Assembly (NCBI GenBank): GCA_964406295.1
Contig: CAYORB010000004.1
Coordinates: 1-47,621 of the forward strand
DNA from: an uncultured Candidatus Peribacteria bacterium
Lineage (GTDB): Bacteria > Patescibacteriota > Gracilibacteria > UBA1369 > LOWO2-01-FULL-3
Length of the DNA stretch: 47,621 bases
Reading direction: 5' to 3'
The stretch's first letter is position 1; each line of letters opens with the position of its first letter. The notes beneath the pieces are model-generated. The model was given only the letters and a program-made list of their open reading frames with translations. It did no database searches and was not told the origin of the DNA. Both the position numbers and the translations under genes were made by a program. This document shows, in pieces, positions 1 to 27,132 of this stretch.

Positions 1-85
1 CTTTTGTTAGTAACCCACCTGATAGATTAAAAAGAAAAAATGATTATTTAAATAGATTACAACCAACAGAAACAATTACTGAATA

Positions 86-1084
86 ATGGGATTTTTATGT
101 AAAATAAAAGAAAATAAATACTTAGATAACCCTCTTGATAGAGATTTGGGGTTAAGTAATATGTGGAAAGCGTGGTTTGCTTGTCGCAAAGGTAAGCGTA
201 TGAGCGATGAAATGCACGAGTTTCAATACAACCTTGAAAGCCGCCTCCTTGAGTTGCATAAGGATTTGAATGAAGGAACTTACAAGCACGGCAAGTACAG
301 GCATTTCATGGTCTGTGACAATAAGAGGCGTGAGATTTCCGTTTCTCCAATACGAGACCGCATAGTCCATCGGCTGCTTTATGACTACCTCGTACCGATT
401 TGGGATAAGACCTTCATCTATGACGCTTGGTCGTGCAGAAAGGGCAAAGGACTGCTGGGAGCGATTGAGCGCACTCAACAATTTTTGAAGTCTTACCCAC
501 ATAGCTGCATTTGGCGAAGCGATGTACAGAAGTTTTTTGATAATGTGGACCAAAGAGTGCTTTTTGAGTTGCTTAAACGGCGTGTGAAAGACAGGAGGGC
601 AATGTTGCTCATTCGTGAAGTTCTCAAGAGCTATAGTACTCATGCGGAAGGTGTGGGCATTCCCATTGGCAACCTTACCAGTCAGGTTTTTTCTAACATT
701 TACTTGAATGAACTTGATCGCCTTGTGAAATACGAGCTGAAACCACAGGCATATTTGAGGTACGGTGATGATTTTGTTTTGTTTGAAGCGGATGAGAGAA
801 AGTTAAAAGATATGAAGGTGGTTGCAACTGAATTTTTGTTCAACAAGCTGAAATTGCCCCTGCACAACAAAAACAATCTCATCGTGAAAGCCAGCCACGG
901 ACTTAAATTTCTCGGCACAGAGCTTTGGTCTTCTGGTAGAAGGCTCTCGAAACGCAACAAAACCCGAATCGCCGCTCGCCTGAACCTTAGAAATACTCCC
1001 AGCTATCACGGAGTAATTTCCAAACATGGTGGTGAAAAAATGCAAAAATGGCTGAATTGGAGAATACATGATCTCATGGATTAA
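86..1084 (+). CDS. Reverse transcriptase, diversity-generating retroelement (DGR) type
   Basis: 332-aa ORF with an ATG start. RT motif 4 reads PIGNLTSQVFSNIYLNELD (IGNLTSQ = nt 665-685); SQ in place of the SP seen in group II intron and retron RTs is the DGR-RT hallmark. Catalytic YGDD is at nt 761-772. N-terminal KGKR and DRIVH motifs are present, and the size matches ~330-aa DGR RTs. Confidence 0.85.
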   Translation: MGFLCKIKENKYLDNPLDRDLGLSNMWKAWFACRKGKRMSDEMHEFQYNLESRLLELHKDLNEGTYKHGKYRHFMVCDNKRREISVSPIRDRIVHRLLYDYLVPIWDKTFIYDAWSCRKGKGLLGAIERTQQFLKSYPHSCIWRSDVQKFFDNVDQRVLFELLKRRVKDRRAMLLIREVLKSYSTHAEGVGIPIGNLTSQVFSNIYLNELDRLVKYELKPQAYLRYGDDFVLFEADERKLKDMKVVATEFLFNKLKLPLHNKNNLIVKASHGLKFLGTELWSSGRRLSKRNKTRIAARLNLRNTPSYHGVISKHGGEKMQKWLNWRIHDLMD

Positions 1085-1776
1085 GAAGCAAAAATCTCGT
1101 TCATGGCATTTTCAAGATTCTGCTCATCAACAAATTTGAAGAGTGTTTCCTTTGGTTCAGCAGGAAAAGCCTCATTGCTGGACCAGCTCCTTTGGATTTC
1201 CCTTTGATAGAGTTTGGTCAGTTCCCGTTTATATTCGGTGTCGGTATTGCCGAGCAGATGACCTCCTTTGGTTTCTACCAGAAAGATTTTATCAAAACTC
1301 TTTTGAGCATTTTCTTGAAGCGTCAGAATGAAGTCAGGGTAGAAGCGATTTTTACGCCACGCCACCAGAAAGAAGTCCTTCTTTGCTTTGTTTCTGTACC
1401 ACCAGTAAGTCTCCTTACCATCTTCCATTCGCCACACAGCTTTATCTTCCAACTCATTCAAATCTTCATTGATAACTGGCTCAAACAGGCTCTTTTTTAC
1501 ATTCAAACTGTGCCTTCTGGCTTCTTTTTCAAAGTAGTACTCAGGTGTCAGTACTCGCTTGAAACTGAATTTAGGTACAAAGCGAACCTCATCCCTTTTC
1601 ATTCGTTCAATAAAAACCTTGCGAGCCAACCGATCAACTTCGCCAACTTTGTTACCCGAACCGCTCAAAATCTTCCTCAACTCATCAAGCAAGATTAGAC
1701 CTCTTTGTAAAACATTCTTTGCAAACAGATCAAATTCTGTATGATGTTCTTGGATGAGAGTTCTAACGTCGTCCAC
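1081..1776 (-). CDS. PD-(D/E)xK nuclease-domain protein; possibly the C-terminal remnant of a type III Res-like helicase-nuclease
   Basis: The FYPDFILTL...IFLVETKGGHL pattern (D...E-x-K) resembles the C-terminal endonuclease domains of type III restriction Res subunits. There is no in-frame ATG at the 5' end; the ORF-track start is a GTG, and the frame stays open upstream to a TGA near nt 1856. No helicase part is present. The stop overlaps the RT stop by 4 nt (convergent). Confidence 0.55.
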   Translation of the reverse strand: MDDVRTLIQEHHTEFDLFAKNVLQRGLILLDELRKILSGSGNKVGEVDRLARKVFIERMKRDEVRFVPKFSFKRVLTPEYYFEKEARRHSLNVKKSLFEPVINEDLNELEDKAVWRMEDGKETYWWYRNKAKKDFFLVAWRKNRFYPDFILTLQENAQKSFDKIFLVETKGGHLLGNTDTEYKRELTKLYQREIQRSWSSNEAFPAEPKETLFKFVDEQNLENAMNEIFAS

Positions 1777-1783
1777 GACTCTC

Positions 1784-1826
1784 CGCCAAAAAAATGTTAA
1801 CTCGAAGAGTTGATGTTTTTTTGGCG
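1784..1826. other. 20-bp hairpin with a GAA loop, built as A7-stem-T7 (possible bidirectional terminator)
   Basis: cgccaaaaaaatgttaactc-gaa-gagttgatgtttttttggcg. Three stem positions pair only as G-U on the + strand RNA. A second GAA-loop hairpin, gaacc-gaa-ggttc, lies at 1836-1848. Confidence 0.4.
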
Positions 1827-1958
1827 TGGGGATGAGAACCGAAGGTTCGCGTATTCAAGTGAGTGAGACAATCAAAAAGTAGACATTCGAACGTTCAATA
1901 TCCACTACTGACAAAATCCCCAGGGATTTACTAATTCCGAACAAGCAACAAATACCAT

Positions 1959-2219
1959 CTAAAAAACTTTGTCATAAACATCTTTTCTATGCTTCACAAG
2001 CAGCAATATAATCTCTTGTTTTTCCAATTTAAAAACAATTCGATAATCCCCCATTCTAAACCTAAAAACATTTTTCCTTCCTGTTAACTTTTTAGCAAAG
2101 AAAAGTGGTTTTTTAAGATTCGAAAGAAAATGAAGTTTCTTTTTAACCTCCTGCTGCACTTTATTATCCAGTTTATGGAGACTTTTCACAAAACCTTCAG
2201 CAACAATAAATTTAAACAT
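1959..2219 (-). CDS. RelE/ParE-family type II toxin
   Basis: 86 aa. The FRFRMGDYRIVFKLEKQEIILLLVKHRKDVY core matches the RelE/ParE signature (R.R.GDYRIIY...HRKDVY). It lies 6 nt downstream of its antitoxin. Confidence 0.85.
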   Translation of the reverse strand: MFKFIVAEGFVKSLHKLDNKVQQEVKKKLHFLSNLKKPLFFAKKLTGRKNVFRFRMGDYRIVFKLEKQEIILLLVKHRKDVYDKVF

Positions 2220-2225
2220 AAAAAA

Positions 2226-2486
2226 TTAAAGTATTGAATTCAGAGATTTTCGTTTAGACTTTTTTTCATTCTTAATCACAGTATCCAATTCAGCCTCAAA
2301 AGCCTGATTCAAAGGTAAATGTTCTTCAATAAAATCTTCAAATTCCGCCTTGCTCATAAAAATCCCAACCTCTTTACCATTTTTCACAATCCTTACAATT
2401 GCAGCATCTAAAGCTTGAGACGGGTTTTTCTGCAACGCAGACATAGATACAATTTTCTCCTTCATAAGAACCGTGGCAGTAGACAT
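2226..2486 (-). CDS. Type II antitoxin, Phd/YefM-like
   Basis: 86 aa counted from the ATG at 2486 (MSTATVLMKEKIVSMSALQKNPSQALD...). It has an acidic C-terminal half and sits directly upstream of the RelE-like toxin. The longer ORF-track start adds an implausible hydrophobic leader. Confidence 0.7.
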   Translation of the reverse strand: MSTATVLMKEKIVSMSALQKNPSQALDAAIVRIVKNGKEVGIFMSKAEFEDFIEEHLPLNQAFEAELDTVIKNEKKSKRKSLNSIL

Positions 2487-2513
2487 AAATTCATAGTTAA
2501 ATACTACTATAAG

Positions 2514-2541
2514 TTTATAATAAAACCACACCGCATGTCAA
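2514..2541 (-). promoter_or_regulatory. Sigma70-like promoter for the antitoxin-toxin operon
   Basis: The minus strand reads TTGACA-16 nt-TATAAA, about 28 nt upstream of the antitoxin ATG. Confidence 0.5.
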
Positions 2542-3266: not shown

Positions 3267-3710
3267 ATGACCACTTTCGCAAAAAACAAAAAGGCGTATC
3301 ACGATTATCAAATCCTTGAAGACTTTGAAGCAGGAATTGTGCTCAATGGCGATGAGGTGAAATCAATTAAAAACGGTAGGTCAAATCTGAAAGGCTCTTT
3401 TGTAGACACTTTAAATGAAGAAGCTTTCATCAACGAGCCGCACATCAGTCGCTATGAAAATTCAGCACGACAAACCCACGACCCCACACGCAAACGAAAA
3501 TTATTACTTAGCAAAAAAGAAATTTTAAAAATAGACCAAGCGATCAACCAAGACGGAGTTACCGCAATCCCATTACAACTGTATTCAAAAAAAGGCTTAA
3601 TAAAACTAAAACTTGGTATATGTCGTGGTAAACAACTACATGACAAACGCCATGACCTCAAAAAACGTGCACAAGAAATGGATGTAAAACGACAGTTGAA
3701 AAACTTCTAA
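3267..3710 (+). CDS. smpB: SsrA-binding protein SmpB
   Basis: 147 aa. N-terminus NKKAYHDYQILEDFEAGIVLNGDEVKSIK, the RKRKLLL motif and a basic C-terminal tail are typical of SmpB. Confidence 0.93.
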   Translation: MTTFAKNKKAYHDYQILEDFEAGIVLNGDEVKSIKNGRSNLKGSFVDTLNEEAFINEPHISRYENSARQTHDPTRKRKLLLSKKEILKIDQAINQDGVTAIPLQLYSKKGLIKLKLGICRGKQLHDKRHDLKKRAQEMDVKRQLKNF

Positions 3711-5434: not shown

Positions 5435-6001
5435 ATGAAATCTGCACTTTACATAGGTCGCTTCCAACCCTTTCACAATGGACATTTGTCTATAATCAAA
5501 CAAATTCTCAAAGAAAACGACAGGGTGATCATAGTAATTGGTAGTGCAGAAAAGAATTTTATCCAAAACAACCCCTTAACAGCCGGCGAACGATACACTT
5601 TAATAAACAAAGCCCTGCAAGAGGCAAAAGTTAAAGCAGAAAAATATTGTATAATTCCTATAAGGAATGTGAATAATTACGCCCTTTGGGTAAATCATAT
5701 CAATATTTATGTACCGTCATATGAAACTCTTTACACTGGTTCAAAAATTGTCAAAACTTGCTATGAGAACAAATACAATCCCCTGCACAACAAAAAAACT
5801 GGACCAAAAATTATACAACTAAACCGCAGCTTAATCCCTGTCTCTGCCACAAAAGTTCGTGATGCAATGTTACATGATAAAGACTGGCAATCACTCGTCC
5901 CATCAAGTGTAGCGGAAACTCTTGATAAATGGAAAATTCCCAACAGAATAAAAAATATTAATGAAACAATGGACCTAACAAAATACAATAACTCCTACTA
6001 A
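5435..6001 (+). CDS. Nicotinamide-nucleotide adenylyltransferase, archaeal (NadM) type
   Basis: 188 aa. GRFQPFHNGHL (the H-x-G-H nucleotidyltransferase motif), IGSAEK, NPLTAGER and SATKVR match archaeal-type NMNAT. Confidence 0.9.
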   Translation: MKSALYIGRFQPFHNGHLSIIKQILKENDRVIIVIGSAEKNFIQNNPLTAGERYTLINKALQEAKVKAEKYCIIPIRNVNNYALWVNHINIYVPSYETLYTGSKIVKTCYENKYNPLHNKKTGPKIIQLNRSLIPVSATKVRDAMLHDKDWQSLVPSSVAETLDKWKIPNRIKNINETMDLTKYNNSY

Positions 6002-6004
6002 AAT

Positions 6005-7411
6005 ATGTCTATCAACCCTCTTATTTTTCGTGCCTATGATATTCGCGGTATCGCCGATTCAAGCCTGTGCCCTAAAGGATCAAAGGCGGATTTAACAGAA
6101 GAAAGTGTCTATCTTATAGGAAAAGCTGCTGCAACACATCTTATACAAAAATACCAAGCAAAAACTATTGCTGTGGGAATGGACAATAGACTGACAGGAC
6201 CAACACTCAAAGCAGCATATATCAAAGGTCTTAGAGAAATAGGAATGGACGTAACAGACATAGGAATCGCAACTTCCCCTATGTTGTACTGGACTGTCTG
6301 CGCACTAAAGTTTGACGCAGGAACAAACATAACGGCTAGTCACAATCCAAAAGAATATAACGGATTAAAAATAGTAAGCCAAAACGCACACTCCGTATGC
6401 GGACCAGAACTGCAAGAATTGGTAGAAATCATAGAAACCGAGGCCTATGCAAAAACTGAAAAACAAGGATCCTTAGAAACGCTAGACGTTTGGGGTAAAT
6501 ACTTAAAAGATTTAAGCTCTCACGCTAACATTAACCGCAAACTCAAGGTTGTAGTAGACTGCGGCAACGGAACAGCCGGCAAATTTGCACCTGAACTTCT
6601 GCGACATATAGGCTGTGACGTAACAGAATTGTATTGTGAATTGGACGGAAATTTCCCAAATCATGAAGCAAATCCTGAAGAGATAGAAAACATGCGAGAT
6701 CTAATAGCAAAAGTAAAAGAAACAAATTCAGATTTAGGAATCGGCTTCGATGGTGACGGTGATCGTGTTGGTGTCGTAAATGAAAAAGGAGAACTTTATT
6801 CTTCAGATTTCATGCTACTTTTATTAGCTAGAGACTTGCTAACTCGCCAGCCAGGCGCACAAATCGTTTTTGACGTAAAAGTATCACAAGCTATTATAAA
6901 TAATATCAAATGTTTAGGTGGCATCCCCGTAATGAGCAAAACAGGTCACAGTTTCATAGAAAGCAAAATGAAAGAAATAGGAGCACCTCTCGCCGGAGAG
7001 GTCTCAGGTCATCTGTTCTTTGCAGAAAACTATTATGGTTTTGACGATGCATTTTTAGCTTCAATTAAAATTATAGAACTACTGTCACAAGAAACGCATC
7101 CTCTTTCACAAATGTTCAATGATTTGCCAAAAACATTTACCACTCCAGAAATAAAAATCCCCTGTCCTGATGAAAAAAAATTCGCAATAGTAGGAACATT
7201 GGTCGCACATTTCACAAAACTATATCCTTCCATAACAATAGATGGTGTGCGCACAAATTTCACAGAAAATTCTTGGGGAGCAGTAAGAGCTTCAAACACC
7301 AGTCCAAATTTAACTTTGAGATTTGAAGCAGACACCAAAGAACAACTAGAAAAAATTAAGGAAGAAATGTTTATCGAACTCCGCAAACACCCAGAAATCA
7401 CAGACATTTAA
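6005..7411 (+). CDS. Phosphomannomutase/phosphoglucomutase
   Basis: 468 aa. FRAYDIRG N-terminus, phosphoserine loop TASHNPKEYNGLK, Mg site GFDGDGDR and sugar loop GEVSGH. Confidence 0.9.
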   Translation: MSINPLIFRAYDIRGIADSSLCPKGSKADLTEESVYLIGKAAATHLIQKYQAKTIAVGMDNRLTGPTLKAAYIKGLREIGMDVTDIGIATSPMLYWTVCALKFDAGTNITASHNPKEYNGLKIVSQNAHSVCGPELQELVEIIETEAYAKTEKQGSLETLDVWGKYLKDLSSHANINRKLKVVVDCGNGTAGKFAPELLRHIGCDVTELYCELDGNFPNHEANPEEIENMRDLIAKVKETNSDLGIGFDGDGDRVGVVNEKGELYSSDFMLLLLARDLLTRQPGAQIVFDVKVSQAIINNIKCLGGIPVMSKTGHSFIESKMKEIGAPLAGEVSGHLFFAENYYGFDDAFLASIKIIELLSQETHPLSQMFNDLPKTFTTPEIKIPCPDEKKFAIVGTLVAHFTKLYPSITIDGVRTNFTENSWGAVRASNTSPNLTLRFEADTKEQLEKIKEEMFIELRKHPEITDI

Positions 7412-7449
7412 AAATTTAGTTAATTAATTTAATATCAAAGACCTTTACC

Positions 7450-10400
7450 TTAATTATTAAACACAAAGGAATCTTTTGCTGGAGCCCTGTAGTAAATATA
7501 AACAGGATCTGGAGATCCATCTACTTCAACTACAAATTCATGATCTTGTGGTGGCACTAAATCCCCTTCCGCAGATCCACTCCCATCATAAATCACCAAA
7601 GGATTAATCCCATTACAAGCATATACCGGAAGCCTACCACCAAACCACCACCCACTACCATCCTCTCGTACAGCCCTTGGACTACAAACTCCACGCTCTC
7701 CACAAAGAATCGCACCACGAGCAATTTCACCAAGATCCTCTATAGTTAAACAAGCACCACAGGCTTGATCTTTTGGCGTACCGTCAGCACAAGTTTCAAC
7801 TTCCATGGTAAACATCCTCAGATAATTCAAATCATAAGTTTGCGCCCTTAATCTATCCGCAGAACTAGCCGGCAATTCTATTATTTCACCAGCTCCCGCC
7901 ATTAAATAATTTTTAGGATTATCACCACCATCCAAATCCGCACCACCAATAGTATTATCAGAGTAAATAGCACCTCTCACTAACAACTGATAATTCAAAG
8001 CCTGTGCCTTGGTAGGAGCATCTGGCCAAAGCGGCGAACCTTTATCACCAAAATCAAGTCCTTCCATATAAGGAAATAAACTTCCATCAAAAATCATTGT
8101 CGCATCTAAAACCATAGACTTTCCTCCAGTCAAATACCCATGTCCCGTTTTATAATAGTTCCTAAGGTTAGTAGAATCTCTCAATGCAACCAAGGTAATT
8201 CGTCTATCTAGCTCATCTTCACTATTGATTGAACTATTCATAAAAATATTCCCACCATCAACAACCACAACCCATCTATTTTCCACCTCACCAGAAGAAA
8301 GATCAATCACCACATCTTGTCCTTTGAAATACAGAACATTTTCATCACCCACCGTAAACTCTTTATACGAACCTAACGCACAAGTTGCGCTATCACGATT
8401 AAATCTACCCGCCTCAATTTCAGATAATTCTCTAACAACACAAACTTTATTTTTACCCGCTTTGTTTTTGCCTGCACTTGGAACTTCAGAACTAATATTC
8501 TTTTCTAAATTTCTCACAATAGTATCCCTTACCAAATCAATTGCCGGATTCCCTACCAGCTGAACTGAATTTTTACTACTAACATTACCAATATCCTGAC
8601 CATAAATATTACCATGAACCTCAATCGAAGGATTGCTTATCTCTCCAGGAGTTTTGGGTAATTTATTCGAATAATAAGAAACTGGTTTTCCAGCAGTCGG
8701 CCAATACTGAACCGTAGTAAACAAACTCGGCGCCTCAGCAAAGGGACAAGGAAAAGAAGCCTCTTCCCCCTCTTCCACTTCCACAACAGGCAAGGTAGCA
8801 ACAGCTTGTAATTCCAAATCCTTTCCAACAACATCTCTACCATGCAAAGATAAAACATGAGTTTCATCGTCCTCAAGTTTTTCCCTATTCATAGTCAAAA
8901 AATGAAAATTAAAATCAGACTGTTTACACCCTCTATTGTCTGCATCAGGTTCATAATACAAAGAATAATTAAACAAAGCCTGATTCACAATTTTTGTAGC
9001 TAAATTATGAGAGGCACTTGCTTTGGTTATAGCTGTAGAAGGTATTCCTCTATACGCATTAATTTTATCTTCCATAGCACCAACATAAAGAGTGTTAACA
9101 CTGATAGGAGGTTTAAATCTAAAATTAACACCGTCAATCTTACCATTCGGAACAACAGAACCAGCAGGCCGCTGAGTCCCCTCCCCATCATCATATGCCC
9201 CATATTCAATTCTCTTTAAAACCAAACGATTTTGTTCAACTGTTTCCGGAACACCAACACCATAAATAAAAGTTTCATTATTAAAAGGATATGAAGGACT
9301 TGTACTATGTGTAAAAGAAATGTTTTCTCCAGTGGTAGGCGCATAAGACGAAACAGGTTCCACAGAAACATAATGTCCGGGATCTTTAGGCATTTCTCTA
9401 AAATCATCAAAAGAAAGAGGTTTAAATTTAACTGCCCCTACAGCATCTGACTGAGTCCAAGGTCTATTCATATCACGAAGAGAATCTCCAACTCCATCAG
9501 CCCACCCATCAGTGCCATCATAACTTTGCATAGATTTTACCGTATCTTCCCAAACAAAAGTAATACCATCAAAATCATCTGGGTCAAGAGACTGTTCATC
9601 AGCATCTTTTAAATACAAATGTACATAATACCCATCCACCCCATCAGCATAACTCACATCGCCTCTTGCAGATGCTTCCAAAGTAAGATCTAAGGCTACA
9701 GCATCAGAATTATCACTACCTATTTCTAATCTATCTTGTCCATTCTGCCCTCCCCTTCTGTCGTCACTATTGCCACCACCTCTTCTATCCTGGTCTCCTC
9801 CACCATTACCACTACCGTCATCAATCTCCATACGGTCAACCCAAACTCCATCAATCCATTCTCCATCTCCCATACGATCAACCCATTCACCATCAACAAA
9901 ATCAAATTCAGGACCATCCACACCTAAACCTAAAGGTAAATCTTCAGGTGCAGGGTTAATTTCCACACAAAGAAAATCTTTATTTTTACACCACTTTCTA
10001 ACATCAGGCACAACCGCTTCACAGTCTGCGCCCTCACAAACCTCACAAGCAACACCTTCACAGGCCACGCAATCTTCTCCTACACAAACTTCACACATAG
10101 GCCCAACACAACCCAAACAATCTTTCCCCTCACAGACTTGGCAAAGAGGCCCTTCACAAGCAACACAGTCTTCCCCTTCACACAATTCACAAGCAGGCCC
10201 ATTACACATTGGCTCCTCTGGAAACAAAGGATCACCAAAAAACGAATCACCTTCAGCATAGTCATACATTTCTTCATCCTCATAAAGTTCAAGTCTAATA
10301 CCGCTAAAATCCATCCACATCCCCGTACTTGTCCAAGCATAGCCGCTAGTATAACCATCCGCATCAACCTTCACTTCATGTTCAGGAAAAACCCCATTAT

Positions 10401-10914
10401 CAAACTGAATCCAACCGAAAACAGAATTCCAAGCATAGCCTTTCAGCGCCCTATTCCCTTCAACATCCGGAGTAGTTAGCTTTACAGAATAATTAATCCT
10501 ACCACATCTGACACCTCCACCAACCACTCCAGAATTATTTCTACCACCTTCAGGATTGAAACCACCCTCACAAGAAAAAGAAATGAAGCCTAAGTTGTCA
10601 CTCCAAGCCCATCCTTTTAAAACATGATCATAGCCAGGTTTCCCAACAATATATTCAGTACAAGCAGCATTCCCCTTTTCGCTGGGAGCAAGCCCTCTAT
10701 CTAACCCTAAAATACTTAAATCAACTAAATCATCCGAAGTTAAACCTGAATTTTCATGTGCATCAAAAGAAATATCACCAATATTAGTGTTTCCACCAGA
10801 AATAACACCAGCAACATTACCTTTACATAGAAAATCACCTTGCGCAAAAACGGTAGATGACAAGGCCATAACTGAAAGAACGCTAATCCCTAAGGACAAA
10901 ATTATTTTTTTCAT
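7450..10914 (-). CDS. Giant secreted repeat protein (hypothetical)
   Basis: 1154 aa. Signal peptide MKKIILSLGISVLSVMALSSTVFA-QG, three Trp-rich repeats (GWAWSDNLGFISF, GYAWNSVFGWIQF, GYAWTSTGMWMDF), a cysteine ladder, a D/G/R low-complexity tract and a long C-terminal region with no recognisable motif. Confidence 0.85.
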   Translation of the reverse strand: MKKIILSLGISVLSVMALSSTVFAQGDFLCKGNVAGVISGGNTNIGDISFDAHENSGLTSDDLVDLSILGLDRGLAPSEKGNAACTEYIVGKPGYDHVLKGWAWSDNLGFISFSCEGGFNPEGGRNNSGVVGGGVRCGRINYSVKLTTPDVEGNRALKGYAWNSVFGWIQFDNGVFPEHEVKVDADGYTSGYAWTSTGMWMDFSGIRLELYEDEEMYDYAEGDSFFGDPLFPEEPMCNGPACELCEGEDCVACEGPLCQVCEGKDCLGCVGPMCEVCVGEDCVACEGVACEVCEGADCEAVVPDVRKWCKNKDFLCVEINPAPEDLPLGLGVDGPEFDFVDGEWVDRMGDGEWIDGVWVDRMEIDDGSGNGGGDQDRRGGGNSDDRRGGQNGQDRLEIGSDNSDAVALDLTLEASARGDVSYADGVDGYYVHLYLKDADEQSLDPDDFDGITFVWEDTVKSMQSYDGTDGWADGVGDSLRDMNRPWTQSDAVGAVKFKPLSFDDFREMPKDPGHYVSVEPVSSYAPTTGENISFTHSTSPSYPFNNETFIYGVGVPETVEQNRLVLKRIEYGAYDDGEGTQRPAGSVVPNGKIDGVNFRFKPPISVNTLYVGAMEDKINAYRGIPSTAITKASASHNLATKIVNQALFNYSLYYEPDADNRGCKQSDFNFHFLTMNREKLEDDETHVLSLHGRDVVGKDLELQAVATLPVVEVEEGEEASFPCPFAEAPSLFTTVQYWPTAGKPVSYYSNKLPKTPGEISNPSIEVHGNIYGQDIGNVSSKNSVQLVGNPAIDLVRDTIVRNLEKNISSEVPSAGKNKAGKNKVCVVRELSEIEAGRFNRDSATCALGSYKEFTVGDENVLYFKGQDVVIDLSSGEVENRWVVVVDGGNIFMNSSINSEDELDRRITLVALRDSTNLRNYYKTGHGYLTGGKSMVLDATMIFDGSLFPYMEGLDFGDKGSPLWPDAPTKAQALNYQLLVRGAIYSDNTIGGADLDGGDNPKNYLMAGAGEIIELPASSADRLRAQTYDLNYLRMFTMEVETCADGTPKDQACGACLTIEDLGEIARGAILCGERGVCSPRAVREDGSGWWFGGRLPVYACNGINPLVIYDGSGSAEGDLVPPQDHEFVVEVDGSPDPVYIYYRAPAKDSFVFNN
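10021..10206 (-). repeat. In-frame tandem (C-x2-C-x4) repeat, about 7.5 units of 8 aa, inside the giant protein
   Basis: Residues 237-298: CNGPACELCEGEDCVACEGPLCQVCEGKDCLGCVGPMCEVCVGEDCVACEGVACEVCEGADC. Confidence 0.9.
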
Positions 10915-10955
10915 GATTCAAATGAGGATTTATTTTTATTTTTTCTATTGCAGAA

Positions 10956-10984
10956 ATTATAGCATAAATCAACATCATCCGCAA
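10956..10984 (-). promoter_or_regulatory. Candidate promoter of the giant protein gene
   Basis: The minus strand reads TTGCGG-17 nt-TATAAT with an extended -10 TG (tgcTATAAT). The -35 lies in the last codons of topA. Confidence 0.4.
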
Positions 10985-13233
10985 TCTGTACAAACCACCT
11001 CTCCCTTCTTTTCAACCTTCAGTCCTTTGCATTTCTCACAAATACCTACAGGCTTGTCCCAGGTAGCAGTTTTACACTTAGGGAATTTATCACAACCCCA
11101 GAAAATCTTCCCTCCTTTGCGTGTACGTCTTTCAGCCAATTGTCCTGTTTCACATTTTGGACATTTAACCCCAGAATAAACAACAATTGATTCAATAGTT
11201 TTACATTCAGGATAATCCACACATCCCAAGAACGGACCAAATCTTCCAACTTTCACCTCCATTCCTTTTCCACATTTTCCACACTTTTTATCCTTATATT
11301 TTTCCTTTAATGCCAAAACTGCCTCGCTATCCTCAGCTTGCTCAGGTTTTTCCTGTCCAGGTAAAGGTTTAGCATTTTTACATTCAGGATAATTTGAACA
11401 AGATAAAAATTTACCAAATCTTCCTAATTTTATAACCATATCTTTCCCACATTTTTCACATTTCTCATCCGATTTTTCATTTACAATATCAGATTTTTTC
11501 AGCTCTTTATCTTTTTTCTCAATATTTTTATGAAAAGGTTTATAAAACTCTTTAATCATAGGCACCCAATTCACTTTCCCTTCTTCCACTTGATCAAGCT
11601 TATTTTCCATCTCGGCAGTAAACTGATAATCAACAATATCAGAAAAATGCGCCACCAAAAGATCAATCACAACACCTGCCACATCCGTAGGCTTCAAAAC
11701 CTTAGCTTCTTTCTCCACGTACCCCCTGGTAATAACCGTTCCGATTGTAGGAGCATAAGTACTCGGTCTACCAATCCCTTCATTTTCCAATTTCTTAACC
11801 AAAGACGCTTCAGTATATCGAGCTGGTGGTTTGGTAAAATGCTGATTATACTCCACCTTATCCTCTTTTACAGCCTCACCTTTCACCAAAACAGGCAAAA
11901 ACTTTTCTCCATGAGAAACCTGTTCATCATCGGCATCTTGCCCCTCCGTATACACCTTCATAAACCCTGCAAATTTCACTGTTTGTCCAGTCGCTCTAAA
12001 TTGATATTTCGTACCTTCAGCCTCAATGTTTACACCAACCTTATTCAAAATCGCCTCCTTCATTTGACAAGCCACAGCCCTTTTCCAAATCAGTTCATAC
12101 AATTTCATTTGATCTTTTGAAAGATATTTTTCAACATTCTTAGGCTTCAAATACATATCCACAGGACGAATAGCCTCATGAGCCTCTTGCGCCCCCTTTT
12201 TTCCTTTAAATCTTCTAGGTTTATCCAAAACAAATTCCTTACCATATTCCTTAGAAATTAAATCCTTTGCTGCCTTCAAAGCCACATCAGAAAGATTCAC
12301 AGAATCCGTTCTCATATAAGTAATCAACCCAGTTTCTCCTCCACCAATGTCTATACCTTCATAAAGCTGCTGAGCCACCATCATCGTTTTTTTCACAGAA
12401 AAATGCAGTTTTCTCGAAGCCTCTTGTTGCAATGTAGAAGTGATAAAAGGCGGAGCTGGATTTCTCTTAGCCTCTTTTTCTTCAACACTAACAACTTTAT
12501 ATTTTGCTTTATTTAAAGCTTTTTCAATCTTTTTCGCTTCCTTTTCATTCTTAATCTCCAGCTTTTTACCATCAAATTTTTGCAATTCAGCCTCAAAAGT
12601 ACGCTCCTCCTTCTTCAGTTTTTTATCATCTTTTTCAAAAGCCCCAACAACTTTCCAATATTCCTCAGGTTTAAACGCCTCTATTTCACGCTCTCTCTCA
12701 ACAACCAAACGCACCGCCACACTCTGTACACGCCCAGCAGAAAGCCCATAACGAACTTTTTTCCACAACAAAGGTGATAGTTCATAACCAACCAATCTAT
12801 CCAAAACTCTTCTCGCTTGCTGCGCTCCCACCACATTATCATCAATGGTTCTAGGCTCATCCAAAGCTTTCAATATCGCCCCTTTTGTAATTTCATGAAA
12901 AACAATTCTCTTTACAGGAGTTTTCTTTTCATCAACTTTCAAAGCTTGTAATAAATGCCAACCAATCGCCTCTCCTTCTCGATCTTCATCAGTTGCGATC
13001 CATAGGTTCTCAGCCTTTTTCAACTCGGATTTGAGCTGTGTTATTACTTTTTTCTTATCAGGTGAAACTGAATAAGTCGGTGTGAAATCTTTTTCCACTT
13101 CAATTCCCATTTTTGATTTAGGAAGATCTCTAACATGCCCCATTGAAGCCAACACTTTGTATTCTTTACCTAAAAAGCGCGAAATTGTTTTCGCTTTAGC
13201 CGGGGACTCTACTATTACCAAATTTTTTGCCAT
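10975..13233 (-). CDS. topA: DNA topoisomerase I
   Basis: Start at MAKNLVIVESPAKAKTI (ATG 13233). Toprim DEDREGE, the active-site region YMRTDS and four C-terminal C-x2-C...C-x2-C zinc ribbons. Confidence 0.93.
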   Translation of the reverse strand: MAKNLVIVESPAKAKTISRFLGKEYKVLASMGHVRDLPKSKMGIEVEKDFTPTYSVSPDKKKVITQLKSELKKAENLWIATDEDREGEAIGWHLLQALKVDEKKTPVKRIVFHEITKGAILKALDEPRTIDDNVVGAQQARRVLDRLVGYELSPLLWKKVRYGLSAGRVQSVAVRLVVEREREIEAFKPEEYWKVVGAFEKDDKKLKKEERTFEAELQKFDGKKLEIKNEKEAKKIEKALNKAKYKVVSVEEKEAKRNPAPPFITSTLQQEASRKLHFSVKKTMMVAQQLYEGIDIGGGETGLITYMRTDSVNLSDVALKAAKDLISKEYGKEFVLDKPRRFKGKKGAQEAHEAIRPVDMYLKPKNVEKYLSKDQMKLYELIWKRAVACQMKEAILNKVGVNIEAEGTKYQFRATGQTVKFAGFMKVYTEGQDADDEQVSHGEKFLPVLVKGEAVKEDKVEYNQHFTKPPARYTEASLVKKLENEGIGRPSTYAPTIGTVITRGYVEKEAKVLKPTDVAGVVIDLLVAHFSDIVDYQFTAEMENKLDQVEEGKVNWVPMIKEFYKPFHKNIEKKDKELKKSDIVNEKSDEKCEKCGKDMVIKLGRFGKFLSCSNYPECKNAKPLPGQEKPEQAEDSEAVLALKEKYKDKKCGKCGKGMEVKVGRFGPFLGCVDYPECKTIESIVVYSGVKCPKCETGQLAERRTRKGGKIFWGCDKFPKCKTATWDKPVGICEKCKGLKVEKKGEVVCTDCG

Positions 13234-26697: not shown

Positions 26698-27132
26698 TGG
26701 TGGAGATGCGGGGAGTCGAACCCCGGTCCAGAGATGAGACCCTGCTGCTTCTACAATCATGTTCCATCTTAAATATTTCATCACTTGGAATAAAAGTTGG
26801 ACAGAAAACGCCAAGTGCCTAGCCTTTTGAAATTTCGTAGCTATCAGGTAAGACAGACCTGGTAACTACTAACCTGCTAAATTACGCCTGTACAGCTCAG
26901 CAGGTGTCGGAAGTACAGACGAAGCCCGAAAATATTCAGGCTGTAAACACATAGTTAGGCAGCTACAGGAACTGGACGCAAAGCGCCAGCGTACTGAGCT
27001 AGATAAGCAAATGTGTTTTCAGATGTGTTTTTAGCACTTAATTTGCGCTGGACGGATTATGGTGGGACAGCGCGACCACCAGATTGCAACAAACAGAACC
27101 TAAATCATCCTGTCGAATACCAATACATCCCC
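26698..27132 (-). ncRNA. ssrA: tmRNA (SsrA)
   Basis: The minus strand begins GGGGATGTATTGGTATTCGACAGG and ends CGGGGTTCGACTCCCCGCATCTCCACCA. The acceptor stem has the G3-U70 alanine identity pair, a T-arm is present and CCA is encoded. An internal tag frame ends ...PVPVAA-TAA (about 26955-27035). Confidence 0.92.

What the first reader, a model, noticed from the sequence alone, without database searches (positions are those of the whole stretch)
1..1084. DGR-type reverse transcriptase at the window edge, with its TR, VR and target out of view
The RT carries the DGR-diagnostic IGNLTSQ motif 4 and YGDD, and has the usual ~330-aa size. A working DGR also needs a template repeat (usually within a few hundred bp of the RT), a variable repeat at the 3' end of a target gene, and often an Avd accessory protein. 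None of these is recognisable in the window. The 85 nt upstream of the RT are non-coding, and downstream the RT runs directly into a convergent nuclease-domain ORF. Either the rest of the cassette lies just left of the window, or this is an orphan RT. DGRs are enriched in small-genome episymbionts, where they diversify surface proteins, so the missing target is probably the most informative gene.
Basis: partly seen in the sequence, partly recalled or inferred. Interest (0 to 1): 0.7.

Follow-up and report, generated by a model that had tools for sequence, protein, structure and literature searches.

The report
Severed DGR reverse transcriptase remnant
The gene is a genuine reverse transcriptase of a diversity-generating retroelement (a known kind of system that mutates one target gene), but in this contig it is cut off at its seventh codon from its helper protein, template and target gene, all of which I recovered intact from near-identical contigs of other samples.

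Summary
ORF 86-1084 is a reverse transcriptase (RT) with IGNLTSQ and YGDD. The 47.6-kb window, which is the whole contig, has no template repeat (TR), variable repeat (VR), Avd or target.

The RT is DGR-type. Its best solved relative is a 328-aa RT that looks like Bordetella bRT. In 31 of 32 related loci with enough upstream DNA there is an adenine-specific TR/VR pair.

The missing cassette was found. Contigs from at least 7 other samples match window 142-1833 or further with one mismatch. Leftward they continue into the native RT start, a divergent 91-aa bAvd, a 106-nt TR, and the VR at the 3' end of a 278-aa DUF4256 protein with a lectin-like predicted fold.

All of this lies on a 6.9-kb integrase/resolvase island inserted in tRNA-Ser(GGA) and bounded by 101-bp direct repeats. 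Window 1779-1879 is the right-hand copy (attR).

In the window, 141 nt of unrelated AT-rich DNA replace everything left of RT codon 7. The "332-aa" ORF is therefore a fusion; the native RT is 320 aa. The downstream "nuclease" ORF is the C-terminal quarter of an 858-aa ResIII protein.

Most likely this is a real truncated allele (about 0.6). A contig-end chimera is the main rival (about 0.3). It is an ordinary member of a known kind, of low to moderate interest.

The parts
1..141 (.). Non-native AT-rich segment (24% GC) joined to the RT inside codon 7. It supplies the ATG at 86 and 19 foreign codons. Its origin is unknown.
   Evidence: It has no homology to the bAvd-RT intergenic region or RT start of any relative. 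It is absent from the intact island, from 7.6 kb of left host flank and from the rest of the window. There were no exact matches in the GTDB, JGI or IMG/VR scans. The only similarity is 51 nt at 82% to an intergenic stretch of a Gracilibacteria MAG.
86..1084 (+). The ORF as read by the first stage (332 aa). It is a fusion of 19 foreign codons and RT residues 8-320.
   Evidence: All relatives align only from query residue about 20 onward.
142..1084 (+). Body of the DGR reverse transcriptase (native residues 8-320), with all clade-invariant residues, IGNLTSQ (I194), R82 and YGDD intact.
   Evidence: It has one mismatch (974 G against T) to the 320-aa RT of the intact island copies. Alignment A2. 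The alignment to 8ub7 puts R82 and I194 opposite chain residues R74 and I181.
1081..1776 (-). Truncated remnant of a ResIII (type III restriction-like helicase-nuclease) gene. Only the C-terminal ~205 residues are homologous (window 1084-1698).
   Evidence: tblastn with the 858-aa ResIII of L007 matches residues 654-858 to window 1698-1084 at 94.6%. PADLOC REase_III profile positions 739-848 of 883. The ResIII helicase domain lies at residues 77-279 of the full protein and is absent here. The same 231-aa ORF is present in the intact island copies that extend beyond it (L099, L100; in L098 and L101 it runs off the contig end).
142..1778 (.). Right-hand 1.64 kb of a ~6.9-kb integrative island (42.6% GC against 35.6% for the rest of the window).
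   Evidence: 99.94% identical to L098, L099, L100 and L101. GC values.
1779..1879 (.). attR: the right copy of the 101-bp direct repeat bounding the island. It holds the last 10 nt of tRNA-Ser(GGA) plus 91 nt downstream.
   Evidence: 100% identical over 101 nt to L098 5839-5939. tRNA-Ser(GGA) lies at L098 5758-5848. Contig ends at 1779, 1833 and 1897 in several assemblies fit k-mer graphs collapsing on this repeat.

Best explanation
Window 142-1084 is the body of a bona fide DGR reverse transcriptase. The element sits on a ~6.9-kb island that encodes a tyrosine integrase and a small serine recombinase. The island is inserted into the 3' end of tRNA-Ser(GGA) and bounded by 101-bp direct repeats; window 1779-1879 is attR. 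In the intact island, reading leftward from the RT, the order is: a 52-nt gap; a divergent 91-aa bAvd; a 106-nt TR that abuts the avd stop codon; and, 427 nt further left, the VR. The VR forms the last ~39 codons of a 278-aa DUF4256-family protein whose C-terminal domain is predicted to be C-type-lectin-like. By analogy with characterised DGRs, the intact element would work as follows (inferred, not shown here): TR RNA is copied by RT plus Avd with misincorporation opposite adenines, and the cDNA replaces the VR, which recodes 13 AAY codons in the target's binding surface. In the window's contig everything left of RT codon 7 is replaced by 141 nt of unrelated AT-rich DNA. I consider this most likely a real truncated allele, produced by a deletion, an insertion or another rearrangement. 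In that allele an intact-looking RT ORF is separated from its Avd, TR and VR, so it cannot carry out mutagenic retrohoming from this locus.
For: RT identity: Pfam RVT_1. The best solved relative is 8ub7 (132 bits, against 72 for the group II intron RT GsI-IIC), with IG(N/S)LTSQ aligned and the R74 and I181 equivalents conserved. Clade context: 31 of 32 related loci with at least 900 nt upstream carry an A-specific TR/VR pair. In the 87-89%-identical relatives all 19-20 mismatches fall at TR adenines. Intact copy of the same element: L013/L099, L098, L100 and L101 match window 142-1833 or further (L099 to 2008, L100 to 1897) with 1 mismatch, and carry the 320-aa RT, bAvd (PF22296), TR/VR and a DUF4256 target; L102 and L103 cross 141|142 with the canonical sequence and no mismatch over the shorter spans they cover (to 564 and 439). 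Within the repeat, 19 of 20 mismatches fall at TR adenines. Island: the 101-nt repeat and the tRNA-Ser gene. Severing: homology stops at 141|142. For a real truncation: the junction is present in two assemblies, the NCBI contig and ENA L001. It is linked to a private SNP at 974 that none of the intact copies has. Assemblers run straight through this region in at least 7 other samples, so nothing there intrinsically breaks assembly. A k=31 Logan contig (L011) crosses the 101-nt repeat without branching, as expected if the left repeat copy is missing in that sample.
Against: The foreign segment is only 141 nt long and the contig then ends. Both assemblies stop at the same base and may derive from the same reads. 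The segment's origin could not be found anywhere. The junction has at most 1-2 nt of microhomology, which fits an in-vitro chimera as well as illegitimate recombination. L011 is short and may be coverage-limited, so its unbranched crossing of the repeat is weak evidence. DGR activity was not shown for this island: the target protein is identical on all 13 contigs and its 90% cluster holds one sequence.
Confidence: 0.6

Rival explanations
1. Contig-end chimera. The genome carries the complete island and DGR, as in the sibling contigs. Window 1-141 is an artefact (a chimeric read or mis-join) stuck onto the contig end where the assembly broke.
For: Only 141 nt of foreign DNA precede the contig end, and these bases are found nowhere else. 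The intact allele is 99.94% identical and occurs in sibling samples of the same project. Contigs of this clade often end just upstream of the RT: 6 of 38 GTDB loci do. The NCBI contig and L001 may come from the same reads.
Against: If canonical sequence were present at the contig's coverage, the assembler should have followed it, as it did in at least 7 other samples, and clipped a low-coverage 141-nt tip (inference from how de Bruijn assemblers work). The allele carries a private SNP at 974. L001's right end behaves as a regular k=55 graph end, 55 nt into the repeat, so that assembly is not erratic.
Confidence: 0.3
2. Interrupted rather than deleted. A foreign mobile element inserted into RT codon 7, and the bAvd-TR-VR-target part still lies further left, beyond the insertion. 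The contig ends because the inserted element is repeated.
For: Both assemblies stop at the same base shortly after the junction, as expected at a repeat edge. The segment is not part of the local chromosome within 7.6 kb to the left or 45.7 kb to the right.
Against: The 141 nt show no transposase, terminal inverted repeat or other mobile-element signature. With k=55 a repeat-induced end would be expected 55 nt past the junction, not 141 nt (inference). L011 suggests the left repeat copy is absent.
Confidence: 0.08
3. Not a DGR RT at all: a retron, group II intron, CRISPR-associated or defence (UG/Abi/DRT) reverse transcriptase that works alone or with the adjacent nuclease-like ORF.
For: Generic RT profiles do hit it: TIGR04416 group II RT/maturase at 142 bits, and PADLOC RT_UG17, UG4 and Drt3a. 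It sits beside a restriction-enzyme-like fragment and a ParE/Phd module.
Against: All NCBIfam hits fall far below their curated cutoffs (142 against 300, 65 against 200, and so on). The gene is 99.9% identical to the RT of an intact DGR. Rfam finds no group II intron or retron RNA in 1-2600, even at E up to 1. The nuclease-like ORF is a truncated fragment.
Confidence: 0.02

Closest known systems
Bordetella phage BPP-1 DGR (bRT, Avd, TR, mtd), the prototype DGR. PDB 8ub7 is taken to be bRT on my own knowledge: 328 aa, with IGSLTSQ, I181 and R74.
   Same: The RT is of the same family (132 bits, E 2.5e-37) and conserves the motif-4 Ile and the Arg equivalent to bRT I181 and R74. The intact island also has an Avd-family protein, a TR whose adenines alone differ from the VR, AAY-rich TR codons, a VR at the extreme 3' end of the target, and a lectin-like target fold, with Mtd among the Foldseek hits.
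   Different: The element is chromosomal, on a tRNA-Ser integrative island rather than in a phage tail-fibre locus. Avd is encoded antisense between the TR and the RT, with the TR abutting its stop codon. The target is a DUF4256 protein. In the window itself only the RT body survives.
DGRs of Candidate Phyla Radiation / Patescibacteria genomes (Paul et al. 2017 from my own knowledge; reviewed in PMC10221324)
   Same: Relatives at 50-89% identity come from Peregrinibacteria/Peribacteria, Gracilibacteria and Saccharibacteria MAGs and share the same target-VR-TR-avd-RT layout.
   Different: Nothing fundamental. This copy is truncated, and the island context (tRNA-Ser att sites, integrase plus resolvase) is documented here for this lineage.
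Group II intron reverse transcriptase/maturase
   Same: Similar RT fingers and palm (TIGR04416 at 142 bits, GsI-IIC at 72 bits).
   Different: The score is below the curated cutoff of 300. There is no maturase or endonuclease extension, and Rfam detects no intron RNA.
Stand-alone defence RTs (UG/DRT, Abi)
   Same: As assembled, it is a solitary RT ORF next to a nuclease-like fragment and a toxin-antitoxin pair.
   Different: The sequence is that of an intact DGR's RT with one substitution. The PADLOC UG hits are generic RT similarity.

Membership tests
Diversity-generating retroelement (DGR) | RT of the DGR clade, with the motif-4 [I/L]GxxxSQ signature and YxDD | tested here: met
   IGNLTSQ and YGDD are present and invariant in the clade. 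The best solved relative is 8ub7, with IGSLTSQ aligned. 31 of 32 related loci have TR/VR pairs.
Diversity-generating retroelement (DGR) | A TR/VR repeat pair whose mismatches fall at TR adenines, on the same replicon | tested here: not met
   There is none in the 47.6-kb window/contig, and the scanner's positive control worked. The feature is met in intact copies of the same island: 106 nt, 427 nt apart, 19 of 20 mismatches at A. Other contigs of this genome could not be examined.
Diversity-generating retroelement (DGR) | Accessory variability determinant (Avd) next to the RT | tested here: not met
   tblastn finds no Avd in the window. Its expected position (start codon at about virtual position 69) is occupied by unrelated DNA. 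The intact copies have a 91-aa bAvd (PF22296, E 1.1e-9, 39.2 bits, just under the cutoff of 40).
Diversity-generating retroelement (DGR) | Target gene with the VR at its 3' end, encoding a C-type-lectin or Ig-like fold | tested here: inconclusive
   No target is in the window. In intact copies the VR covers codons 240-275 of the 278-aa DUF4256 protein. The AlphaFold model has pLDDT above 95 for residues 94-278. The top Foldseek hits are all C-type-lectin-like domains and Mtd, but every E-value is above 0.1.
Diversity-generating retroelement (DGR) | Evidence of ongoing VR diversification | tested here: not met
   The target protein is identical on all 13 contigs from at least 7 samples, and its 90% cluster holds a single sequence. 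The VR does differ between the related elements L007 and L005. Read-level heterogeneity cannot be tested with these tools.
Group II intron RT/maturase | Full-length match to TIGR04416 and an intron RNA (domains V/VI) around the ORF | tested here: not met
   142 bits against a cutoff of 300. Rfam finds nothing in 1-2600 at E up to 1.
Retron / UG-DRT defence RTs | Score above the family's curated cutoff, with an msr-msd ncRNA or fused effector domains | tested here: not met
   retron_St85 47 against 235, Drt3a 65 against 200, Drt2 42 against 390. There is no ncRNA hit and no extra domain in the 320-aa protein.
tRNA-targeting integrative island (tyrosine integrase) | Integrase gene, insertion at the 3' end of a tRNA gene, and flanking direct repeats that duplicate the tRNA 3' end | tested here: met
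   A 371-aa Phage_integrase protein. tRNA-Ser(GGA) at L098 5758-5848 overlaps the left repeat by 10 nt. The 101-nt repeat is perfect and includes window 1779-1879. The window itself holds only attR and the island's right end.

The most novel reading that the evidence does not exclude
The 141|142 junction is a real in-vivo event that re-wired an otherwise intact DGR reverse transcriptase to a foreign 5' region and start codon. This would leave a stand-alone RT that is maintained in a CPR population after loss of its TR, Avd and target. It would be a snapshot of how orphan or domesticated RTs arise from DGRs, or an RT that still acts in trans on a TR elsewhere in the genome.
Probability: 0.06. 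Interest if true: 0.55.

Novelty: new member of a known kind. Interest (0 to 1): 0.27.

Why it matters
The finding matters only modestly.

1. It resolves the open question of the finding. The missing Avd, TR, VR and target are identified, and the target is a DUF4256-family protein with a lectin-like predicted fold. That family is not named as a DGR target in any full text I could search. Supplementary tables of the DGR surveys were not searched, so I claim no priority.

2. It shows a DGR riding on a small tRNA-Ser integrative island in a probable CPR lineage. The contig ends suggest that occupied and empty sites coexist, so the diversification module would be horizontally mobile.

3. If the truncation is real, intact and RT-only alleles of one DGR coexist in related samples. 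That would be a natural knock-out usable to ask what the DGR contributes.

4. It is a practical caution. An RT at a contig edge with a plausible length and start codon can be a fusion ORF.

Tried and rejected
- **Exact-DNA scans for window 7-35.** GTDB genomes and JGI metagenomes gave 0 hits. The JGI scan is uninformative: a string taken from the JGI-derived contig L009 also gave 0, so that collection lacks the relevant samples.
- **IMG/VR scan for window 116-141.** 0 hits. The RT's viral relatives are only 31-35% identical, so there is no evidence for a phage origin.
- **Exact look-up of the window's SmpB.** Not on record.
- **Look-up of L013's RT by DNA reference.** I worked around this with ids from the listing of cluster members.
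- **Early idea that L001 is a k=141 bubble branch.** L001 is the L007-homology block 142-1692 plus exactly 141 nt on each side. I dropped the idea because the right ends are explained by the 101-nt repeat with k=55: 1779 + 54 = 1833, the L010/L013 overlap is 55 nt, and L101 and L109 start 55 nt inside the repeat. The 141/141 symmetry appears to be coincidental, because 1692 is only where L007 diverges, not where the sibling island copies do.
- **Remote VR in the window.** The A-tolerant search with the island's TR gave at best 32 of 72 non-A positions, which is background. A hypervariable patch at 8797-8945 relative to L009 shows mixed substitutions and a 12-nt indel, which is not a DGR signature.
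- **Circular contig.** The ends do not overlap.
- **Island more conserved than chromosome.** Rejected: outside one variable gene, the flank is as conserved as the island.
- **Literature.** Several paper searches timed out.
- **Origin of window 1-141.** The only lead is 51 nt at 82% to an intergenic region of a Gracilibacteria MAG, which is too weak to build on.

Full report
**1. The observation**

ORF 86..1084 (+, 332 aa) exists and contains IPIGNLTSQ and RYGDDF. It matches Pfam RVT_1 (E 1.6e-14). The window is a complete 47,621-nt contig, because the exact protein is on record from only one NCBI contig of that length plus one ENA contig.

No TR/VR pair is present:
- The general repeat finder found nothing relevant.
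- An all-diagonal scan that tolerates mismatches at A or T found nothing in direct or inverted orientation. The same scan recovers the TR/VR pair of locus L007 as a positive control.
- tblastn with a relative's Avd and target, and blastn or A-tolerant searches with relatives' TRs, found nothing.

**2. The RT is DGR-type**

Three lines of evidence support this:
- Among solved structures the best match is 8ub7, a 328-aa RT, at 132 bits (E 2.5e-37). The group II intron RT GsI-IIC scores 72 bits and retron-type RTs about 57 bits. In the alignment the chain reads IPIGSLTSQ with Ile at position 181, and KPRLIS with Arg at position 74. From my own knowledge these are the two Bordetella bRT residues implicated in adenine mutagenesis, so I take 8ub7 to be bRT. 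A paper search for the PDB code found nothing. Both residues align with residues that are invariant in the window's clade, R82 and I194.
- NCBIfam models for group II intron, retron, Drt and Abi RTs all score far below their curated cutoffs.
- Rfam finds no intron or retron RNA near the gene.

Genomic context is decisive. I scanned 38 related loci from GTDB genomes, mostly Peribacteria/Peregrinibacteria, Gracilibacteria, Saccharibacteria and other Patescibacteria. Of the 32 with at least 900 nt upstream of the RT, 31 have a repeat pair whose mismatches fall at adenines of one copy. The 6 remaining loci are contigs that end 88-693 nt upstream of the RT. In the closest relatives (87-89% identity) the layout is a DUF4256 gene with a 107-nt VR, 435 nt of spacing, the TR, bAvd on the minus strand, then the RT. 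All 19-20 mismatches there fall at TR adenines.

**3. The window's copy is severed**

- Alignment of the RT-upstream DNA shows that the window resembles its relatives only from about position 140.
- blastn against L007 matches window 142-1692 only.
- In the protein alignment the native N-terminus MGSEELI is replaced by MGFLCKIKENKYLDNPLDR. Everything from DLGLSN onward is conserved, including every clade-invariant column.
- All GTDB relatives align from query residue about 20.
- Downstream, ORF 1081..1776 matches only residues 654-858 of L007's 858-aa ResIII protein, at 94.6% identity. The helicase domain at residues 77-279 is missing. The "nuclease-domain ORF" is thus a gene fragment.

**4. 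The missing cassette was found in the same population**

An exact-protein look-up of the ResIII fragment returned L013, from a sibling sample of the same project. In window orientation it matches window 142-2008 with one mismatch (974 G in the window, T in L013). Leftward it continues with the canonical RT start, bAvd, TR, VR, the DUF4256 gene, a tyrosine integrase and a small serine recombinase.

Look-ups of its RT (P0121, 7 contigs) and target (P0148, 13 contigs) returned further copies from at least 7 samples in three projects, all 99.9-100% identical.

Coordinates in L098 (12,872 nt):

| Feature | L098 position | Strand |
|---|---|---|
| tRNA-Ser(GGA) | 5758-5848 | + |
| Left direct repeat | 5839-5939 | |
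| orf207 | 5948-6571 | - |
| Resolvase | 6663-7262 | - |
| Integrase | 7448-8563 | - |
| orf141 | 8628-9053 | - |
| DUF4256 target | 9582-10418 | + |
| VR | 10300-10405 | |
| TR | 10727-10832 | |
| bAvd | 10833-11108 | - |
| RT | 11161-12123 | + |
| ResIII fragment | 12120 onward | - |
| Second repeat copy | from 12818 | |

Window position equals L098 position minus 11,039. In the intact element the native RT start would therefore be at window 122 and the bAvd start codon at 69. The TR would lie 207-312 nt beyond the left edge, and the VR 634-739 nt beyond it.

Within the repeat, 19 of 20 TR/VR mismatches fall at TR adenines. The TR has 13 AAY codons, 12 of them recoded in the VR.

**5. The element rides on an integrative island**

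Window 1779-1879 is 100% identical over 101 nt to L098 5839-5939. That repeat begins 10 nt before the 3' end of tRNA-Ser(GGA). So this is a 6,878-nt island with 101-bp att repeats in a tRNA gene, and window 1779-1879 is attR.

This explains the contig ends seen in other assemblies:
- Right-flank contigs stop exactly at 1779 (L009, L012).
- Island contigs stop 55 nt (L001, L098, L101) or 119 nt (L100) past the start of the repeat.
- Left-flank contigs stop at, or 55 nt inside, the repeat.

The k=119 JGI contig L100 consists of 18 nt, the repeat, the island, the repeat and 18 nt. That is what a graph containing both occupied and empty sites would give. This is an inference from contig ends and was not observed directly.

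**6. What window 1-141 is**

It has 24% GC, against 42.6% for the island remnant. It is absent from:
- the island;
- 7.6 kb of left host flank;
- the rest of the window;
- all 100-odd fetched loci, except for 51 nt at 82% to an intergenic region in a Gracilibacteria MAG.

The join falls inside RT codon 7, with at most 1-2 nt of microhomology.

Arguments for a real allele:
- The junction is in two assemblies.
- It is linked to a private SNP at 974.
- Other samples assemble straight through this region.
- The k=31 contig L011 crosses the 101-nt repeat unbranched.

Arguments for a chimera:
- The segment is short and the contig ends right after it.
- The two assemblies may share the same reads.
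- The segment's source is unknown.

I put a real severing at about 0.6 for a deletion or unspecified rearrangement, plus about 0.08 for an insertion. A chimera gets about 0.3.

**7. Mechanism**

Shown here: the parts list, their arrangement and the A-specific TR-to-VR pattern.

Inferred from established DGR biology (my own knowledge of the Bordetella phage system): RT plus Avd reverse-transcribe TR RNA with adenine-specific errors, and the cDNA replaces the VR. This would diversify about 13 residues in the C-terminal domain of the DUF4256 protein.

The AlphaFold model of the target is confident for residues 94-278 (pLDDT above 95). Its best structural matches are C-type-lectin-like domains: the Bd2740 C-terminal domain, CD72, MCL, intimin and Mtd. 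None is statistically significant (E 0.14 or worse).

There is no sign of current activity at consensus level. The target is identical on all 13 contigs, and its 90% cluster has one member. In the window's allele the RT lacks TR, Avd and VR, so it cannot drive retrohoming from this locus.

**8. Novelty**

DGRs in CPR bacteria are known (and my own knowledge). This is a new member of a known kind, with a truncated copy in the window. The minor points of interest are the tRNA-Ser island context, the antisense avd lying between TR and RT, and DUF4256 as the target family, which is not named in searchable full texts.

Noticed in passing
window 1959-2219 (-) and 2226-2531 (-): A ParE-family toxin (PF05016, E 4e-7) and a Phd/YefM-like antitoxin (E 6e-5, below the Pfam cutoff) lie immediately outside attR, on the chromosomal side of the island. 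In one assembly a further graph branch sits at 1954-2008, 5 nt from the ParE stop. This suggests additional strain variation there.
   Followed up: partly
window 1785-1827: An 11-bp-stem hairpin (CGCCAAAAAAA ... TTTTTTTGGCG) lies inside the att repeat, just after the tRNA-Ser 3' end. It may be the tRNA's terminator or part of the recombination site. The simple terminator scan did not report it.
   Followed up: no
L098 10727-11108; likewise L007 8565-8947: In this DGR clade, avd is encoded antisense between the TR and the RT, and the TR ends at the base before the avd stop codon. Any TR-downstream spacer RNA would therefore be antisense to avd. I did not check whether this layout has been described.
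   Followed up: no
L098 9582-10418 (P0148) and its homologues: DUF4256 (PF14066) is the DGR target in this clade, and the Pfam domain itself spans the VR-encoded C-terminus (residues 101-275 of 278). About 188-aa DUF4256 proteins also occur outside CPR, for example in Haliscomenobacter. No searchable full text names DUF4256.
   Followed up: partly
L098 10300-10405 in 13 contigs: The VR and target protein are identical in every sample and project where the island was found, and the target's 90% cluster has one member. The related island of L002/L005 against L007 shows different VRs. The DGR of this island may be quiescent.
   Followed up: partly
L098 5964-5991 (3' end of orf207, 25-52 nt inside the island from the left repeat): The only differences among intact island copies form a tight cluster (GAA to TTC at 5983-5985, A to C at 5991, and G to T at 5964 in one copy), giving two haplotypes across samples. 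The cluster lies close to the att site; its meaning is unknown.
   Followed up: no
window 8797-8945 and 10114-10192, inside the 1154-aa ORF 7450-10914 (-): Compared with a contig that is otherwise 99.95% identical (L009), nearly all differences cluster in these two patches, including a 12-nt indel. The substitutions are mixed rather than A-specific, and the island's TR does not match. The protein has no Pfam hit on record. It contains a 48-nt-period repeat at 10021-10206.
   Followed up: partly
window 26698-27132 (-) and 3267-3710 (+): A tmRNA gene (Rfam 115.9 bits; tag peptide AKNTSENTFAYLAQYAGALRPVPVAA) and an smpB gene lie on the same contig. These are ordinary housekeeping genes.
   Followed up: no
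window 92-141 against L017 13319-13369: There is 51 nt of 82% similarity between the foreign segment and an AT-rich intergenic stretch upstream of a small ORF (MIKILDRKSS...) between pgk and gatB in a Gracilibacteria MAG. The similarity ends exactly at the window's 141|142 junction. It could be a shared promoter-like element or chance similarity in low-complexity DNA.
   Followed up: partly
L014, L023, L043, L044, L052, L066, L006: Many MAG contigs of this RT clade end 80-700 nt upstream of the RT. DGR loci therefore seem to be frequent assembly break points, and RTs that look orphaned at contig edges are common artefacts of that.
   Followed up: no
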